Source of the DNA: Escherichia phage vB_EcoM_F1
DNA: 64,000 nucleotides
Reading direction: 5' to 3' (one strand)
Sequence record: NC_054912.1
Under the pieces are notes generated by a model that made no database searches, was not told where the DNA came from, and saw only the letters and a program-made list of their open reading frames with translations. Position numbers and translations under genes: made by a program. Shown piece after piece: positions 2,566-37,408 of this stretch (the first letter of the stretch is position 1; each line of letters opens with the position of its first letter).

Positions 2566-3361
2566 AGGACATCCAACACATTTTATAACCTTTGCAGGTT
2601 CTGTTAGGATTATTTAATGCTTTCAATATATTAGAAGACCCTATATCTAAATACTCCCTTAATTCATAAAGATAGTTAAAATCAATAGTTTCACCTGTTT
2701 TTACACTTGTGATTCTTATAGGCCTTCTTTCATATTTAGATTTATACAACTCTCTAGTCTTAGCTTTAGTTTCTTCTGACCTAGGAGTGTATGGTTTAAA
2801 TCCTTTTGTTTTAAATGTTTCCATTCTTGATTTAGTTATTTTATCCTGGTGTTCTTTTGTTTTTACAGGTGCTTTTCGCCCATTCTCCCAAGATAACTTG
2901 TTGGCCTGTATTATTTTATCTATTGCTTCTTGCGTATGAGTTTTACCATAAAATGGATTTAATTCGCCTATACGTTGTGAAGCAATATGTGACATTAATT
3001 CTCTTGTTGCTTTAGTATGTTTTTTACCTTTAAATGGGTTGCCATTTTTAGCAATCCATTCTTTCATAAATCTAGAGTGCTCTTTAGAGAATTCTTGTTT
3101 AAGCCAATCATAATCTCTAGAATTTCTAGCTCCCATGTAAAAAGCTCTAATAGCCATAAGCATAGAACGGTTCTTATGAATTTTATAAAGCAATAAATGG
3201 GCGATAAAATGCTCTCTAGGGGTCATTTTAACTAGATTTGATTTAGCATTACTCCCGCCCATAGATTTAGGCAAAATATGGTGAGTTTCAGTATAATTAG
3301 GAATAGTGCTGCGGTTTTTAGCCGCAGCGATAAGTTTATCATAAATTTTACGATAATTCAT
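2564..3361 (-). CDS. HNH-family homing endonuclease-like protein
   Basis: 265-aa ORF with HHILPKSMGG..N motif typical of HNH nucleases; ATG overlaps gene 39 stop (TAATG); track start at 3376 is a TTG. Confidence 0.7.
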   Translation of the reverse strand: MNYRKIYDKLIAAAKNRSTIPNYTETHHILPKSMGGSNAKSNLVKMTPREHFIAHLLLYKIHKNRSMLMAIRAFYMGARNSRDYDWLKQEFSKEHSRFMKEWIAKNGNPFKGKKHTKATRELMSHIASQRIGELNPFYGKTHTQEAIDKIIQANKLSWENGRKAPVKTKEHQDKITKSRMETFKTKGFKPYTPRSEETKAKTRELYKSKYERRPIRITSVKTGETIDFNYLYELREYLDIGSSNILKALNNPNRTCKGYKMCWMS

Positions 3362-15564: not shown

Positions 15565-15572
15565 TATTTATA
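15565..15572 (-). promoter_or_regulatory. T4 late promoter (TATAAATA) for soc
   Basis: exact TATAAATA on minus strand about 31 nt upstream of soc ATG. Confidence 0.6.
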
Positions 15573-16257
15573 CATCTTCTTTTCTGAATAAATAAATTAA
15601 ATTCTTAAGAGCTGAACTTGTTACATCATATTTTCCTTTAAGCGCCTTTACAACCGGGCCTGTTGCTGGTTTACCTAAAGAAACCCATAACTCATGTATT
15701 TCGCTTTTAAGCGGTTCATGCCAATGCGGCGCTTTTCTTTGCGCCCTTGAAGTTCCTTCTGAAATCTTTTTATTTCCGCCATTCGAATAAAACTTTTTCA
15801 TTACTTCAGATTGCCGAGCTTTTCGTTCTGCTCTATTTTGGGCTATACGTTGTGAATTCTTCATCCGAGTTTTTGTTTCAGGATTGTTTAATCTAAGTTT
15901 ATGTTCTAATCGTTGTTGCTCAGTCCATTTTCTTCCTTCTCCACCCTGACCACCAGGAGAAATATTAATGCAAGTATCTGGGTGTTTACGTTTTAATGCA
16001 GATATTAGCTCGCGTTCAACTTCATATGATTTTTCTCTAGAACCATGGCATTTTGACCAACGTATTTTATAATTAAAACCATACTTACGATATATGTTCC
16101 ATAGTATTTTGCCTGACCCCGGATATTTATCATCATATGGATTTACAATAAATGATTCATGTTTCCCAGCGTACCAAAAGACGCCTTTCGGCGTCCTAAC
16201 TTTTACTATATATGTTCTATAAAATTTTTGTTTAATACCCATTATCTTGACGTTCAA
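15568..16257 (-). CDS. segF: GIY-YIG homing endonuclease-like protein (SegF-like position between 56 and soc)
   Basis: 229-aa ORF, N-terminal YIVKV...FWYAGKH GIY-YIG-like motif, basic C-terminal region; position as in T4. Confidence 0.55.
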   Translation of the reverse strand: MNVKIMGIKQKFYRTYIVKVRTPKGVFWYAGKHESFIVNPYDDKYPGSGKILWNIYRKYGFNYKIRWSKCHGSREKSYEVERELISALKRKHPDTCINISPGGQGGEGRKWTEQQRLEHKLRLNNPETKTRMKNSQRIAQNRAERKARQSEVMKKFYSNGGNKKISEGTSRAQRKAPHWHEPLKSEIHELWVSLGKPATGPVVKALKGKYDVTSSALKNLIYLFRKEDV

Positions 16258-16747
16258 AATTATGTTTATTTTTCAAATAATAAAGTTTAAAGATTTCTTC
16301 CGCATTCATTCCAAGGCCAGCAAACATATTTAATACGAAATGAAATATATCCACAAGCTCAAATTTAATTTCGAGCTGATCTTCTGGGGACATTTCATCA
16401 ATGCGTTTTTCTTGCGCTTCAATATAACGTGCTTTCCATTTTTTCCAAACTGCCGATGCATCTTTTTCACCACGTGACATTTCACCAAGAGAAGTCAGAA
16501 GTTCGCGGAATTCATCATCAATACAGTCTTTTTGTTCACGCATCCAAGAAACAACATCACCGGCAGTTTCTAATTTATCTGGATGATAACAGTATTCGCG
16601 GTCATTTGCTAAACGAATCTGCAGAGATTTCTGCATGTCAAGCATTACCTGCAGCGGGTCTTTTTCATCACCGAGAATATCCCAGTATTCATTTTGAGCT
16701 TTATCAGCGCCTTCGATCAGTTGACTACATTCGTTAAAGTAAGCCAT
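16232..16747 (-). CDS. 56: dCTP pyrophosphatase (gene 56)
   Basis: 171 aa from ATG at 16747 (track ORF begins at an upstream start); MAYFNECSQLIEGADKAQNEYWDILG recognised. Confidence 0.85.
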   Translation of the reverse strand: MAYFNECSQLIEGADKAQNEYWDILGDEKDPLQVMLDMQKSLQIRLANDREYCYHPDKLETAGDVVSWMREQKDCIDDEFRELLTSLGEMSRGEKDASAVWKKWKARYIEAQEKRIDEMSPEDQLEIKFELVDIFHFVLNMFAGLGMNAEEIFKLYYLKNKHNFERQDNGY

Positions 16748-16807
16748 TATTTTTCCTTTCAATTCATTAATAAGTTAAATAATTATATCATTTGAATATG
16801 TAAGCAA

Positions 16808-17596
<789 letters not shown>

Positions 17597-22376: not shown

Positions 22377-22739
22377 TTAAAAGAATTTAAACTTTTTCTT
22401 TGATCTTTTATTAAATGCATCTTGTAGTTGCATTGTAATACATTTTTCTACATGAGGAGCTAACTCAGCTTTTCTTTCTTGGTCAAGAACAGCAAAGTCC
22501 ATTACGACTTTTCCATCAACCCAATCTAATTTTGTCACATACACAATGTGTGTAGAACCATCTTCTAGTTTAATAACAATCTCCTGGATAACATTTTCCA
22601 TGGCAGATTTAATTATCTTAAGAGATTCATTAAAAAGACGTTCTTTTCTTTCTTCTTCCCCCTCCGAAGAGGGGGATTCGTCGATAATTTCTAGATCTAA
22701 ATCTAAATCATCTTTATTCATTAAATTCTTCCATATCAC
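22377..22739 (-). CDS. 40: gene 40 head-assembly protein (candidate)
   Basis: 120-aa acidic protein between 41 and uvsX as in T4. Confidence 0.55.
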   Translation of the reverse strand: MIWKNLMNKDDLDLDLEIIDESPSSEGEEERKERLFNESLKIIKSAMENVIQEIVIKLEDGSTHIVYVTKLDWVDGKVVMDFAVLDQERKAELAPHVEKCITMQLQDAFNKRSKKKFKFF

Positions 22740-23895
22740 TTAGCTGATCTAGGTCAGTTTCTAAATCAGCCGCTGATTTACTTTTACTTTCTGGAGATTT
22801 AAATTTTTCAACCTTTGAGTTAATCAATTCATCAACTTCAGCTTCAACAATTTCATTACTATCAATAGCACCTAACTGATAAGCACGTTTAATAGCATCT
22901 CGGAATGGTTGATGCTTAAATAAAGGACCCCAGAATGTAGTGCAGTTGGTATCTTTTGCACGCCAAGATTTTTCTTCGCGAATCATCTCGCCGGTTTCTT
23001 CATCAAGAAATTCACGAGCATACCAGCCATTTTTTGGTTTTACTACAAATCCTAATTCTAGAGCCATATCTAACAATCCAGAATAAGGATCGATACCACC
23101 GTCAAATTTAACATCAATAAAGAATTTACTTTTTTCTTTAACGGTACGAGATTTTTCTACATTTAGAACAAATTGATACCCCTGAAGATCAGAACCATCT
23201 TTAATCTGACGTTTACCGATAATGAATACGGTATCAGCCGAATACATTACGCCTGTACCACCTGTCATCACGGTTTTACTAAACATTTCAATTGTTTCAA
23301 TTGTATGGTTAACCGCAACACATGGAATATTTTTAATGCTAAAATAAGGAGTAACAATACGGAATAATGACTTCAGTGATTTAGCACGAGTCATATCTGC
23401 CACAGATTTTTCATTCAAGGCATCTTCCGTTTCTTTCTTAGAAGCCATATTACCGATTGAGTCGATGAATACAATAACCTTTTCACCACGCTCAATAGCT
23501 TCAAGCTGGTTCACCATATCAATTTTCAGCTGTTCAACTGACTGGATTGGCGTATGAATTACTCGTTCCGGATCAACTCCCATGGATCGCAAATAAGCTG
23601 GAGTAATACCAAATTCGCTATCATAGAATAGACAAACCGCGTCAGGATATTTGTTCAAATATGCCGCAACCATAGTCAAAGACATATTTGATTTAAAGTG
23701 TTTAGAAGGCCCTGCAAAAATAGTTAAACCAGACTGCATACCGCCATCAATCGCACCAGAAATAGCGATATTAAGCATTGGAATTTTTGTACGAATTACA
23801 TCCTTTTCATTAAAGAATTTAGATGTAGTCAGTTCAGCAGTCATTTTAGAAGTGGAAGCTTTAATCAAACGGGATTTTAAATCTGCAATAGACAT
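22714..23895 (-). CDS. uvsX: UvsX RecA-like recombinase
   Basis: 393 aa; Walker A GPSKHFKS; recognised as T4 UvsX. Confidence 0.9.
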   Translation of the reverse strand: MSIADLKSRLIKASTSKMTAELTTSKFFNEKDVIRTKIPMLNIAISGAIDGGMQSGLTIFAGPSKHFKSNMSLTMVAAYLNKYPDAVCLFYDSEFGITPAYLRSMGVDPERVIHTPIQSVEQLKIDMVNQLEAIERGEKVIVFIDSIGNMASKKETEDALNEKSVADMTRAKSLKSLFRIVTPYFSIKNIPCVAVNHTIETIEMFSKTVMTGGTGVMYSADTVFIIGKRQIKDGSDLQGYQFVLNVEKSRTVKEKSKFFIDVKFDGGIDPYSGLLDMALELGFVVKPKNGWYAREFLDEETGEMIREEKSWRAKDTNCTTFWGPLFKHQPFRDAIKRAYQLGAIDSNEIVEAEVDELINSKVEKFKSPESKSKSAADLETDLDQLSDMEEFNE

Positions 23896-23972
23896 TCATT
23901 TTTTCCATAGGCATCATTATATTTTCCTCACTGGTTAAAGATAGAGTAATTATAACACAATAAATTTAGGCA

Positions 23973-24821
23973 TTAATCAACTGCTATTGGATGAATAGCA
24001 TTAAACTTATGAAATGCTTCTGATTTTTCTTTACGCGAAACACACATGCGAAGAACCTTTAATGGCTCGTCTTCTTCACCCAACGATTTTCGTTTTTCAA
24101 TATTCGATGTTTTCCAACGAGCTTGCTCTGGAAACTCTCTATTGATTTGCTCAAGCGCTCTATTGTGTTTAGAATTACTACGAATTGAACTACACCCACC
24201 GGGAGCGTGTGATTTTCCAGATACAACTAGATATTTGAACAAGGCCAAATGCGGATAACCTTGATTAATTAAATTGAGAAATGCATACATATCTTCGCAT
24301 AAATCAATTTTTCCATACCCAATTTGTTCTGTCGTAAGTTTTCCGAGGTCATACCACGTATTCGTGAATCCATATGAATTTTCACGATAATTACCCCAAG
24401 ATGAAGTAATTTTAAAAATTGGTAGACGAGCATGGCCATGATAATACCCACAATCCATGGCATCCTCAACGTATTGAATCAATTCATAGAACTGTTCACG
24501 AGTTAATTGATTAATTTTATCTACGCGCCGTTTATCGTCTCTCTTTCGTATTGAACTCATACGGATAGTAGTATCATCGTCAATCATCCAGATTCGTTGA
24601 CCTGCATACATATCAGTAATTGCTTTACGAGTTCCGGCAATTCCGTTTACATCATCAGGAATAGTTACAATTTTAGCTCTAGACCCATAAGCATCATAAT
24701 AAGCTTTTTCTTCGTGTTCACGCACTACAATATGGGGTTCATAATCAGTCGGAAACATATCAAGGGCAGAAACTGCCCCTACACGCTGATAACTTGGAAT
24801 TACGAATTGAATCATTTCCAC
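23973..24821 (-). CDS. predicted DNA-modifying glycosyltransferase (not T4 beta-gt; possibly T2/T6-type beta-alpha-gt)
   Basis: 282 aa at the beta-gt position between uvsX and 42; DxD-like IWMIDDDTTI motif; no resemblance to T4 beta-gt as I recall it. Confidence 0.5.
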   Translation of the reverse strand: MEMIQFVIPSYQRVGAVSALDMFPTDYEPHIVVREHEEKAYYDAYGSRAKIVTIPDDVNGIAGTRKAITDMYAGQRIWMIDDDTTIRMSSIRKRDDKRRVDKINQLTREQFYELIQYVEDAMDCGYYHGHARLPIFKITSSWGNYRENSYGFTNTWYDLGKLTTEQIGYGKIDLCEDMYAFLNLINQGYPHLALFKYLVVSGKSHAPGGCSSIRSNSKHNRALEQINREFPEQARWKTSNIEKRKSLGEEDEPLKVLRMCVSRKEKSEAFHKFNAIHPIAVD

Positions 24822-25552
24822 TCACCGTTATAATCTTTTTTCACAATATGAGTTTCGCCAGTATTCCACCAATGATCAACCAAGTAAAAATGACGAGAAT
24901 ATACATGAAGACTTCCAACATTCCATATAATAGAACCTGCTTTATACTGACGAGTTGAATCGCCTGCATTCAAATCAGATACTAATTTATCTAATACGTA
25001 TTTTTGCCATGCATAATCATTACGGAATCCGAAGACCACGTCATTTGAGCGCATGCTTACTACTGCATTGACTTTCTTATCACGAATCAGGTACTGTACT
25101 GTATTAGTACACATGAAATCTGACATACCATCTTTATTGTAGTCAAATTGCATGGATGGACGAGTATAAATCATGATACCACGTCGAGAATCAGGATTTT
25201 GACCAAGTTCAGCTAAACACATATCATACTGGGCATAGTTATCTTCTGACCAGATAGCCCAACCATAATTTGAGTTAATTTCACCTTTAGAAGATGCTAC
25301 TTGTTGCCAAATCTTTGGTGTTTCACCTGGAATATCTTTAACAAACAGACTTTGAGACTTATACCATTCAAGTTCACGCTGAATGTATTCATCATTAAGA
25401 GCGCCAAAAATAAACGGTTCATCTGCTACAAATGATGCGCCAATAATTTCAATAGTTTTAACGCCAGTTTTATCAACTACGAAATCTTTTTCTTTTAATG
25501 CAAGCCCCAAATGAAGACGGATTTCTTCAACTGTCATAGAATCACTAATCAT
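24812..25552 (-). CDS. 42: dCMP hydroxymethylase (gene 42)
   Basis: 246 aa; thymidylate-synthase-like fold motifs; recognised as T4 gp42. Confidence 0.9.
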   Translation of the reverse strand: MISDSMTVEEIRLHLGLALKEKDFVVDKTGVKTIEIIGASFVADEPFIFGALNDEYIQRELEWYKSQSLFVKDIPGETPKIWQQVASSKGEINSNYGWAIWSEDNYAQYDMCLAELGQNPDSRRGIMIYTRPSMQFDYNKDGMSDFMCTNTVQYLIRDKKVNAVVSMRSNDVVFGFRNDYAWQKYVLDKLVSDLNAGDSTRQYKAGSIIWNVGSLHVYSRHFYLVDHWWNTGETHIVKKDYNGEWK

Positions 25553-25705
25553 TTAAACCTCAATTGATACATTCATATTTAACTTGTAACAGTAATAAAC
25601 CCCAACCTAAAATAATAGTTGGAATCATAAGAGGAACCGTTACACTATAGTATATACTTATTATAATCATCAAGATTAAAAGCAATGCTGCTATAATTTT
25701 GCTTT

Positions 25706-25957
25706 TCATTCCTTCTCTCTGATGATAATTACTTGATTTGGCTGTGCAGACTTTTTAGTTTCACCCGCAATTGACCAAATAAATGTAATAAACCAACCAA
25801 TAATTGACCAGTTAAACAGTAAAGATGTGAAAAAGATTCCTACTGTCGATTTTGACCCACGCATCAAGGCGATAAACCATGGAAGCATGTATATAATAAT
25901 AGCCAACACGCCTGAAACTAAAACCATAAAAATTGAACCTGCTACTAAAGTTTCCAT
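25706..25957 (-). CDS. imm: immunity protein Imm (membrane, superinfection exclusion)
   Basis: 83 aa, two hydrophobic helices, downstream of 43 as in T4. Confidence 0.6.
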   Translation of the reverse strand: METLVAGSIFMVLVSGVLAIIIYMLPWFIALMRGSKSTVGIFFTSLLFNWSIIGWFITFIWSIAGETKKSAQPNQVIIIREKE

Positions 25958-25964
25958 GTTTTCC

Positions 25965-26345
25965 TCACTTAGTCAAATTTTTTACACATGAATTATAAGA
26001 ATTCACTACATACTCCATCGGAGCATTTTTACCTGTACGCCATTGGTAATTATTAGCCCAATTTGCCCAAAGTTCTGCACAGTAGTTTTCAATTTTTTCT
26101 TCGCGTGTAATTACATCCGAATTACGATATGCTTGAGCAGATTCATCTGGACGAATAGCTTCGTCAAAATTCGCCTGCATTTGTTCTACTGTCTGTTTTG
26201 GAGCTTCTTTATAACACTTGACATTAGGATTATAAAACTTGCTTGAACAGTTTACAATTTTTCCTACATCAGACTGATTTACTACCGGTCCTTGAGCTAC
26301 ACAACCAGTAAGACCTAATGCAATAACCAAAATAGCGATTTTCAT
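25965..26345 (-). CDS. predicted lipoprotein (126 aa)
   Basis: signal peptide MKIAILVIALGLTGC with lipobox. Confidence 0.55.
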   Translation of the reverse strand: MKIAILVIALGLTGCVAQGPVVNQSDVGKIVNCSSKFYNPNVKCYKEAPKQTVEQMQANFDEAIRPDESAQAYRNSDVITREEKIENYCAELWANWANNYQWRTGKNAPMEYVVNSYNSCVKNLTK

Positions 26346-36190: not shown

Positions 36191-36206
36191 AAGGGCCGAA
36201 GCCCTT
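36191..36206 (-). terminator. stem-loop aagggc-cgaa-gccctt at the 3' end of the alpha-gt gene
   Basis: GC hairpin with UUCG loop. Confidence 0.45.
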
Positions 36207-37408
36207 TATTTTGTAATAATGTCAAACTGTTCTTTAAAGCAGAAGCTTGAATCTTGATGCTGATACAAAAATTCATATGCTTTTTCACGTTCACGGTCAT
36301 AAAGAGCTCGGTCAGATGACAGTTCTTTAATACGCTCGAATGTTGATTCCATGTCATTTTCATCAAACCAAATGATACCGCTATCATGTGAGGTCAAAGG
36401 AGTATTATCAACACGGAATTTTAAATTTTCGCCAGTAGATTTCCAGAAAACAGGAATTGTTCCACATGCACCAAGCTCGAGATGAGTATATTCGAGTGAG
36501 CGTTGTAAGTATTTCTGGTTAAGTTTACTCAACTGATATCCAAAGCCAGATTTACTCATTCGTTCAAGCATTTCACTATTAATATAACAATCTAGGATTT
36601 GTGCCGGTTGATTCGGCGCGAGATTCATTTTATCAATCTCACGATTACCGTAATATTCATACGGAATACCTTTTTCCTTAATTGCAATAAAAGCAGGGGA
36701 ACGTTCAAGACCTTCCATTACAGTGGATTTACCAGCAGGTTTTAAGAATTTTTCATGAAAATCAAACATCTGATAAAAACCTTTCCATGTAGTCGTACGA
36801 CCAATCCAACGGTTGATGTTCATGTTAATTTCAGAAACATCTTTCCAATAAGTTGACCGAACCTTCGCAATATCCATAGGAGGCTGAAAATTATATACTG
36901 TTGGTGCTTCTTCAATATCATCAAACAGAGAAACAGTTTCTGGATACCATTCTTTCATCAGAACTTTATTAAAATCGCCATTATCAGAATGACTAAAAAT
37001 AACATCAGCTCGACGAACAGTTTCTTCTAATCCCAAATTTCGACGCAAAGAAAGAACAGAATGATCATGCTGATAAACTACAACACGAATAGAAGGTTTA
37101 ATATTATCTAAAAGTTTTTTATAGTTATTAATCGTGGCTTCTTGAACGGAAGTAGCAGGAACAGAATTAATAATTAGAATATCACAATCATTTACCAGCT
37201 TAAGTGTTTTATCGTATTCTTTAGCTAAAATAACTGGAATTGAAAATGATTTGTGGTCATGAGAACTTGTACGAGTAAATGATTTATCTTTAGCATAAAC
37301 CAAAGTTACTTCATGACCATTTTTAATAAACCAATCACGCTGCTCAAGAGAAAATTTAGTTACACCGCAACCTTCAAGACCCCGAGCCAGAAAAATGCAT
37401 ACTTTCAT
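36206..37408 (-). CDS. agt: DNA alpha-glucosyltransferase
   Basis: 400 aa, MKVCIFLARGLEGCGVTKFSLEQRDWFIKNGHEVTLVYAKDK recognised as T4 AGT. Confidence 0.85.
   Translation of the reverse strand: MKVCIFLARGLEGCGVTKFSLEQRDWFIKNGHEVTLVYAKDKSFTRTSSHDHKSFSIPVILAKEYDKTLKLVNDCDILIINSVPATSVQEATINNYKKLLDNIKPSIRVVVYQHDHSVLSLRRNLGLEETVRRADVIFSHSDNGDFNKVLMKEWYPETVSLFDDIEEAPTVYNFQPPMDIAKVRSTYWKDVSEINMNINRWIGRTTTWKGFYQMFDFHEKFLKPAGKSTVMEGLERSPAFIAIKEKGIPYEYYGNREIDKMNLAPNQPAQILDCYINSEMLERMSKSGFGYQLSKLNQKYLQRSLEYTHLELGACGTIPVFWKSTGENLKFRVDNTPLTSHDSGIIWFDENDMESTFERIKELSSDRALYDREREKAYEFLYQHQDSSFCFKEQFDIITK

What the first reader, a model, noticed from the sequence alone, without database searches (positions are those of the whole stretch)
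23973..24821. Non-T4 glycosyltransferase at the beta-gt locus
The gene between uvsX and 42 encodes 282 aa with a DxD-like motif (IWMIDDDTTI) and does not resemble T4 beta-glucosyltransferase as I recall it, while the alpha-gt gene is T4-like. This suggests a different hydroxymethylcytosine glucosylation pattern, which affects sensitivity to host restriction systems.
Basis: partly seen in the sequence, partly recalled or inferred. Interest (0 to 1): 0.45.

Follow-up and report, generated by a model that had tools for sequence, protein, structure and literature searches.

The report
T2/T6-type second glucosyltransferase, already known
The gene between uvsX and gene 42 is the well-known T2/T6-type enzyme that adds a second glucose to already alpha-glucosylated hydroxymethylcytosine in phage DNA; most T4-like coliphages carry it here, so the finding is correct but ordinary.

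Summary
The window is Escherichia phage vB_EcoM_FN (MZ170041.1). An intact minus-strand gene lies between uvsX and gene 42. The likely start is the ATG at 24815, giving 280 aa rather than 282. It carries the IWMIDDDTTI motif and shows no similarity to T4 beta-glucosyltransferase.

It is the orthologue of the T2/T6 beta-glucosyl-HMC-alpha-glucosyltransferase (ba-gt, g-gt, "TAGT", Pfam PF20691). Identity is 96.8% to T2 and 96.1% to T6, and PHROG 842 matches at E 4e-88. An AlphaFold2 model (pLDDT 94.9) matches only GT-A fold glycosyltransferases, whereas T4 alpha- and beta-gt are GT-B.

The window also encodes an alpha-gt 98.75% identical to T4's. The whole genome has no beta-gt homologue. The expected DNA therefore carries free 5hmC, alpha-glucosyl-5hmC and gentiobiosyl-5hmC, with no beta-glucosyl-5hmC.

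The protein is 100% identical to that of phage vB_Eco_EL. EL DNA was measured by HPLC/MS at about 1:2:2 (5hmC : alpha-glucosyl : gentiobiosyl).

Published surveys show alpha-gt plus TAGT is the common arrangement, and T4's alpha plus beta pair is the rare one. Novelty: already known. Interest: low.

Side observations: ba-gt alleles track the extent of gentiobiosylation, and T2 alone has His at an otherwise invariant Arg11.

The parts
23973..24815 (-). ba-gt / TAGT gene (beta-glucosyl-HMC-alpha-glucosyltransferase), 280 aa plus TAA stop
   Evidence: ORF. 96.8% identical to T2 and 96.1% to T6. 100% identical to phages EL, Geo and BGP. PHROG 842 at E 4e-88. Pfam PF20691 at 39.1 bits against a 27.5 cut-off. 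GT-A model with pLDDT 94.9.
24819..24821 (-).
   Evidence: the ORF listing takes the farthest start. Homologues are annotated as 843-nt CDSs starting at the ATG.
24573..24581 (-). DxD motif D79-D80-D81, directly after strand beta4 (residues 74-78); inferred metal and UDP-sugar binding site
   Evidence: D80 is invariant and D79 and D81 are at least 90% conserved in 70 homologues down to about 20% identity. Position relative to the strands from the model. Codons checked.
24291..24296 (-). E174-D175 at the N-terminus of helix 174-184; D175 is the inferred catalytic base of an inverting GT-A enzyme
   Evidence: D175 is invariant in 70 homologues and starts a helix in the model. The catalytic role is an inference by analogy with the GT2 'xED' motif and was not tested.
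24783..24785 (-). Codon for Arg11, invariant in the family; His in phage T2 only
24207..24668 (-). Span holding the seven residues that define the FN/EL/Geo/BGP allele (V50, I89, K95, R97, I101, S202, H203) against the T6/T2/TB37/CP/Some/EH2 allele (I, M, R, C, V, A, Q)
24812..25552 (-). Gene 42, dCMP hydroxymethylase (makes the 5hmC precursor); its stop overlaps the ba-gt start (ATGA)
   Evidence: 96.7% identical to T4 gp42. Pfam thymidylate synthase family. Overlap shown.
22714..23895 (-). uvsX recombinase, downstream neighbour; 77-bp spacer to ba-gt, with no segA homing endonuclease gene (T4 has one here)
36206..37408 (-). alpha-glucosyltransferase (a-gt), which makes the alpha-glucosyl-5hmC substrate of ba-gt
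   Evidence: 98.75% identical to T4 a-gt. Pfam PF11440 at 858 bits. It is the T4/T6 type: 4-5 differences, against 33 from the T2 type.
16232..16762 (-). Gene 56-like dCTPase ORF (excludes dCTP so that 5hmdCTP is incorporated); part of the same modification pathway
   Evidence: Pfam dUTPase_2 at 26.2 bits. EL annotates a dCTP pyrophosphatase at the syntenic place. The start codon was not refined.

Best explanation
The gene is the T2/T6-type beta-glucosyl-HMC-alpha-glucosyltransferase, also called ba-gt, g-gt or TAGT. It is a GT-A fold, DxD-type glycosyltransferase.

The pathway runs as follows. Gene 42 and the dCTPase cause 5-hydroxymethylcytosine to replace cytosine in phage DNA. The alpha-glucosyltransferase then puts an alpha-linked glucose on about three quarters of those bases. 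This enzyme then uses UDP-glucose to add a second glucose in beta-1,6 linkage to the first, giving gentiobiosyl-5hmC.

The genome has no T4-type beta-gt, so the sites that alpha-gt skips stay as bare 5hmC. The protein is identical to that of phage vB_Eco_EL, so the most likely pattern for this phage is roughly 1:2:2 (5hmC : alpha-glucosyl-5hmC : gentiobiosyl-5hmC).

Basis of each step:
- Shown here: orthology, synteny, fold, conserved motifs, presence of alpha-gt and absence of beta-gt.
- Taken from published work on T2, T6 and EL: the chemistry of the product and its effects on defence.
- Inferred: the roles of D79-D81 (metal and UDP binding) and D175 (catalytic base of an inverting mechanism).
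For: - Identity of the window: 100% to MZ170041.1 at the same coordinates.
- Orthology: 280/280 aa aligned, 96.8% to T2 and 96.1% to T6. PHROG 842 'beta-glucosyl-HMC-alpha-glucosyltransferase' at E 4e-88. Pfam PF20691 TAGT above its gathering score. The same position between gene 42 and uvsX as in T2 and T6.
- Conserved residues: R11, D80, D175 and G207 are invariant; D79, D81, R63, G206 and R212 are at least 90% conserved.
- Partner enzyme: alpha-gt is present.
- No beta-gt: tblastn of T4 beta-gt against the whole 168,411-bp genome gives a best E of 0.49.
- Function in relatives: deleting ba-gt in T6 removes gentiobiosyl-5hmC and leaves alpha-glucosyl-5hmC (PMC11078745; bioRxiv 10.64898/2026.02.25.707755).
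- Chemistry in a phage with the identical protein: HPLC/MS of EL, Geo and BGP DNA gives 5hmdC: alpha-glc: alpha-gent of about 1:2:2, with no beta-glucosyl form (PMC13390438).
Against: - Nothing contradicts the assignment.
- No experiment exists on this phage itself.
- The extent of gentiobiosylation varies from 5% to 72% among phages whose ba-gt proteins differ by only 2-11 residues. The ratio predicted here rests on identity with EL, Geo and BGP only, and could also depend on expression level or other genes.
- The catalytic roles of individual residues are inferred. No member of the family has a solved structure detectable by sequence.
Confidence: 0.95

Rival explanations
1. It is a highly diverged homologue of T4 beta-glucosyltransferase that puts a single beta-glucose directly on 5hmC.
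For: It occupies the same locus as T4 b-gt, between gene 42 and uvsX. Some database records label homologues 'b-gt' (RB10, RB27, PP01).
Against: There is no sequence similarity (E 4.1). The predicted fold is GT-A, while T4 beta-gt is GT-B (PMC13216743). No beta-glucosyl-5hmdC was detected in EL, Geo or BGP, which encode the identical protein (PMC13390438).
Confidence: 0.01
2. It is a TAGT-family enzyme with a different specificity from T2/T6 ba-gt, either a different sugar or direct action on 5hmC. Some distant TAGTs occur without an alpha- or beta-gt partner.
For: The family is diverse: 367 representatives at E<=1e-3. PMC13216743 reports 288 of 753 phage genomes with solitary TAGT homologues of unknown activity.
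Against: This protein is not a distant member. It is 96-97% identical to the genetically characterised T2 and T6 enzymes, and 100% identical to that of phages with measured gentiobiosyl-5hmC (PMC13390438). Its alpha-gt partner is present.
Confidence: 0.03
3. The gene is present but weakly active or poorly expressed, as appears to be the case in T2 (5% gentiobiosyl), so the DNA is essentially alpha-glucosyl-5hmC plus 5hmC.
For: T2 has an intact, 97%-identical gene yet only about 5% gentiobiosyl-5hmC (PMC6024577). A terminator-like hairpin lies inside codons 12-18.
Against: The window protein keeps the invariant Arg11 that T2 has lost. It is identical to the EL/Geo/BGP protein, which gives about 40% gentiobiosylation (PMC13390438). 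The same terminator-like scan finds about one such site per region by chance (1 found, 1.1 expected). Its first bases are the same in T6, which gentiobiosylates 72%.
Confidence: 0.08

Closest known systems
Phage T2 and T6 beta-glucosyl-HMC-alpha-glucosyltransferase (ba-gt / g-gt; UniProt Q06717 and Q06718 as cited in PMC6024577; from memory, cloned by Winkler and Rueger 1993)
   Same: Same length (280 aa), 96-97% identity, same locus between gene 42 and uvsX, same partner alpha-gt, and no beta-gt.
   Different: There are 9 substitutions against T2 and 11 against the T6 record. Seven of them (V50, I89, K95, R97, I101, S202, H203) form a distinct allele shared with EL, Geo and BGP.
ba-gt of Durham Collection phages vB_Eco_EL, Geo and BGP (PMC13390438)
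   Same: The protein is 100% identical. The alpha-gt differs by 2-3 residues. The locus is 98.2% identical to EL at the nucleotide level. Their DNA chemistry was measured at 5hmdC: alpha-glc: alpha-gent of about 1:2:2.
   Different: They are different isolates, and the rest of the genome was not compared here.
Pfam PF20691 TAGT (TET-associated glycosyltransferase) family, GT-A fold, sister to GT2
   Same: Scores above the gathering cut-off over the full profile (positions 2-205 of 205). GT-A fold and DxD motif.
   Different: Here the 5hmC comes from a nucleotide-level dCMP hydroxymethylase (gene 42), not from a TET/JBP dioxygenase acting on DNA. The acceptor is a sugar already on the base.
T4 beta-glucosyltransferase (GT-B fold, PF09198)
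   Same: Same genomic position. Also a UDP-glucose-dependent enzyme that makes a beta linkage on phage DNA.
   Different: Unrelated sequence and a different fold (GT-A against GT-B). The acceptor is alpha-glucosyl-5hmC rather than 5hmC, so it does not fill the sites left bare by alpha-gt.

Membership tests
T2/T6 ba-gt orthologous group | Full-length, high sequence identity to T2/T6 ba-gt | tested here: met
   96.8% (T2) and 96.1% (T6) over 280/280 aa. PHROG 842 at E 4e-88.
T2/T6 ba-gt orthologous group | Located between gene 42 and uvsX, replacing T4 b-gt | tested here: met
T2/T6 ba-gt orthologous group | Co-occurs with an alpha-gt that supplies the acceptor, in a genome without beta-gt | tested here: met
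   alpha-gt at 36206..37408. No beta-gt in the whole 168-kb genome.
T2/T6 ba-gt orthologous group | Transfers glucose from UDP-glucose in beta-1,6 linkage to alpha-glucosyl-5hmC in DNA | not testable with these tools
   Supported indirectly. Phages with the identical protein contain alpha-gentiobiosyl-5hmdC (PMC13390438). T6 delta-ba-gt loses it (PMC11078745).
Pfam PF20691 TAGT | Score above the Pfam gathering threshold | tested here: met
   39.1 bits against 27.5, covering the whole profile.
GT-A fold glycosyltransferases | Single Rossmann-like alpha/beta/alpha domain with a DxD motif after beta4 | tested here: met
GT-A fold glycosyltransferases | Divalent-metal dependence and an inverting mechanism with an Asp/Glu base | not testable with these tools
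   Inferred from the invariant D80 and D175 and from the beta linkage of the known product.
T4 beta-glucosyltransferase family (PF09198, GT-B) | Sequence similarity to T4 b-gt, or a GT-B two-domain fold | tested here: not met
   BLASTP E 4.1. No PF09198 hit. The fold is GT-A.

The most novel reading that the evidence does not exclude
The extent of gentiobiosylation in T-even phages may be set by the ba-gt allele. The FN/EL/Geo/BGP allele has seven substitutions. Four lie in the basic loop at residues 89-101, and two lie next to the conserved GG motif at 206-207. This allele would be a partial-activity variant giving about 40% gentiobiosyl-5hmC, while the T6/TB37 allele gives about 70%. Separately, T2's notoriously low 5% would be due to its private Arg11-to-His change at an otherwise invariant residue. 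This would give a simple genetic explanation for the long-known T2/T6 difference, and a way to predict the modification pattern from sequence.
Probability: 0.3. Interest if true: 0.3.

Novelty: already known. Interest (0 to 1): 0.1.

Why it matters
The sugar pattern on 5hmC decides which host defences can attack a T-even phage.

- Gentiobiosyl-5hmC resists the Brig1 glycosylase in vitro and resists the BapA deglucosylase.
- The bare 5hmC left in the absence of a beta-gt is a target for Brig3-type glycosylases.
- All forms are cut by the GmrSD/BrxU type IV enzymes (PMC11078745; bioRxiv 10.64898/2026.02.25.707755; PMC13390438; PMC13216743).

For this window the practical value is annotation. The GenBank record calls the gene 'hypothetical protein', but it can safely be named ba-gt/TAGT. 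The phage's DNA chemistry can be predicted from an identical protein in a chemically characterised relative. None of this is new biology.

Tried and rejected
- T4 beta-gt homology: BLASTP and tblastn on the window and on the whole genome found nothing.
- Solved structures by sequence: single sequence and a 70-sequence profile gave only chance hits at E >= 0.18. No experimental structure of the family could be used to verify the catalytic residues.
- Promoter and terminator scan of 23600..26000: the counts equal the shuffled expectation, so no regulatory claim is made.
- Two blind fetches of Durham phages QOTSP and NR1 missed the locus because those records start elsewhere. Those two phages, and Solly, were left out of the allele table.
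- A weak tblastn hit of T4 alpha-gt to genome position 126554..126982, outside the window (23% identity, E 0.029), was not pursued and is probably chance.
- A literature search for the 1993 cloning paper did not find it in the held library. That citation rests on memory.

Full report
**What is there.** The window is identical, at the same coordinates, to Escherichia phage vB_EcoM_FN (MZ170041.1), a Tequatrovirus from poultry sewage. On the minus strand an ORF runs from 24821 to 23973 (282 aa from a GTG). It lies between gene 42 (24812..25552, 96.7% identical to T4 dCMP hydroxymethylase) and uvsX (22714..23895, 90.3% identical to T4 UvsX).

The real start is most likely the ATG at 24815. It overlaps the gene 42 stop as ATGA and is preceded by GGTGAG. 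It gives the 280 aa annotated for the homologues in T2, EL, TB37, fPS-65 and others, which is also the published length of T2 ba-gt (PMC6024577, Table 1). The IWMIDDDTTI motif is present, with D79-D80-D81 at 24573..24581.

**What it is.** The protein is 96.8% identical to the phage T2 protein at the same locus and 96.1% to the T6 gene annotated 'ggt, beta-glucosyl-HMC-alpha-glucosyl-transferase', over all 280 residues.
- It matches PHROG 842 (that same name) at E 4e-88.
- It matches Pfam PF20691, TET-associated glycosyltransferase (TAGT), at 39.1 bits against a cut-off of 27.5.
- tblastn finds a homologue in 687 phage records. Of these, 473 are at least 90% identical, almost all Escherichia, Shigella, Yersinia or Salmonella T4-like phages. 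About 200 more are 60-80% identical, in Klebsiella and Enterobacter T4-like phages.

Against T4 beta-glucosyltransferase there is no similarity (best BLASTP E 4.1).

Across homologues down to about 20% identity, R11, D80, D175 and G207 are invariant. I6, P7, R63, D79, D81, G186, G206, R212 and P229 are at least 90% conserved. The DDD triplet sits directly after strand 74-78, the canonical GT-A DxD position. E174-D175 opens helix 174-184. I infer metal and UDP binding for the DxD, and a catalytic-base role for D175, as in inverting GT2 enzymes. This was not tested, and no family member has a solved structure detectable by sequence.

**Context and pathway.** The window also encodes:
- an alpha-glucosyltransferase at 36206..37408 (-), 98.75% identical to T4's, with Pfam PF11440 at 858 bits;
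- a gene 56-type dCTPase ORF at 16232..16762;
- a Dam-type methyltransferase at 16808..17587.

I assembled the whole 168,411-bp genome from the window plus three fetched stretches. It has no homologue of T4 beta-gt (best E 0.49). The enzyme set is therefore the T2/T6 set: gene 42, alpha-gt and ba-gt.

**How it works, from the literature on the orthologues.** In T2 and T6, alpha-gt glucosylates about 75% of 5hmC. ba-gt then adds a second glucose, beta-1,6-linked to the first, to give gentiobiosyl-5hmC. About 25% stays as bare 5hmC because there is no beta-gt to fill the remaining sites (PMC6024577; bioRxiv 10.64898/2026.02.25.707755). Deleting ba-gt in T6 converts the DNA to alpha-glucosyl-5hmC only and increases sensitivity to the Brig1 glycosylase. 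Gentiobiosyl DNA resists Brig1 in vitro and resists the BapA deglucosylase (PMC11078745; bioRxiv 10.64898/2026.02.25.707755). GmrSD-family enzymes such as BrxU cut all of these forms (PMC13390438; PMC13216743).

**Prediction for this phage.** The window's ba-gt protein is 100% identical to that of the Durham Collection phages vB_Eco_EL, Geo and BGP. Its alpha-gt differs from EL and Geo by 3 and 2 residues. HPLC/MS of those three phages gave 5hmdC: alpha-glucosyl: alpha-gentiobiosyl of about 1:2:2, with no beta-glucosyl form (PMC13390438). That is the best available estimate for vB_EcoM_FN.

**How ordinary it is.**
- Thomas et al. found that 12 of 15 sequenced 'RB' phages have alpha-gt plus ba-gt, and only two have T4's alpha plus beta pair (PMC6024577).
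- The 2026 NAR survey found alpha plus beta in only 6 of 753 phage genomes, with alpha-gt or beta-gt plus TAGT as the common arrangement (PMC13216743).

So the 'non-T4' enzyme is the rule and T4 is the exception. The only practical gain is annotation, because MZ170041.1 labels the gene 'hypothetical protein'.

**Side observation 1: ba-gt alleles.** I compared ba-gt from phages with known chemistry.
- EL, Geo and BGP (about 40% gentiobiosyl) share one allele: V50, I89, K95, R97, I101, S202, H203. The window carries the same allele.
- TB37, CP, Some and EH2 (about two thirds gentiobiosyl) and T6 (72%) share the other: I, M, R, C, V, A, Q.

The alpha-gt type does not track the phenotype. T6 has the T4-type alpha-gt and TB37 has the T2-type, yet both are high. 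The association is confounded by phylogeny: three close relatives on one side, five phages on the other.

**Side observation 2: T2's Arg11.** T2 (5% gentiobiosyl) differs from TB37 at only two residues, H11 and S251. R11 is invariant in the 70-sequence family alignment. The T2 sequence of this 90-nt stretch is found in only 8 of 417 phage records, seven of them T2 and one SV76. A hypomorphic R11H would explain T2's low gentiobiosylation. This is a hypothesis and was not tested.

**Side observation 3: the T6 record.** The T6 record MH550421 carries a TAG at codon 10 of ba-gt and is annotated from a later start.

Noticed in passing
window 24783..24785 (codon 11 of ba-gt); L004 (T2, AP018813) 3031..3033: Arg11 is invariant in 70 diverse family members, but it is His in phage T2. 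The T2 sequence of this 90-nt stretch occurs in only 8 of 417 phage records, seven T2 and one SV76. T2's ba-gt differs from that of TB37 (about 2/3 gentiobiosyl) at only H11 and S251. This could explain T2's low (5%) gentiobiosylation.
   Followed up: partly
window 24207..24668 (-); L005, L013, L014, L006, L017, L020, L021: Two ba-gt alleles differ at seven residues (50, 89, 95, 97, 101, 202, 203). They separate the Durham phages with a 1:2:2 pattern (EL, Geo, BGP and this window) from those with about 2/3 gentiobiosyl (TB37, CP, Some, EH2) and from T6. The alpha-gt type does not track the phenotype. The association is confounded by phylogeny.
   Followed up: partly
L003 (T6, MH550421.1) 3028..3030: The deposited T6 genome has a TAG stop at codon 10 of ba-gt (CAG in all others), and the gene is annotated from a downstream start. 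This is either a mutant stock or a sequencing error, and it is odd for the phage with the highest gentiobiosylation.
   Followed up: no
window 24761..24781 (-): A G+C-rich hairpin (GGGGCAG TTT CTGCCC) lies inside codons 12-18 of ba-gt, just after the gene 42 stop. It is annotated as a 'terminator' at the same place in Yersinia phage fPS-65. The scan count equals chance. It could attenuate read-through from gene 42 into ba-gt.
   Followed up: partly
window 23896..23972: Only a 77-bp spacer separates ba-gt from uvsX. T4 has the GIY-YIG homing endonuclease gene segA between b-gt and uvsX. This genome instead has a segA-like sequence elsewhere (genome position 71667..71936, 54% identity).
   Followed up: no
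window 15568..16257 (-): A 229-aa ORF next to the dCTPase gene has weak similarity to the N-terminal (GIY-YIG) part of T4 SegA (27.5% over 98 aa, E 8e-5) and no Pfam hit. It is possibly a seg-type homing endonuclease gene.
   Followed up: no
window 3038..3361 (-): A stretch is 45% identical to the N-terminal 116 aa of the T4 MobB HNH homing endonuclease (E 4e-24). T4's own mobB sits next to a-gt, where this window has none.
   Followed up: no
window 16808..17587 (-): A Dam-type N6-adenine methyltransferase (Pfam PF02086, 174 bits). [quoted passage not shown] This is consistent with the window belonging to that subgroup.
   Followed up: partly
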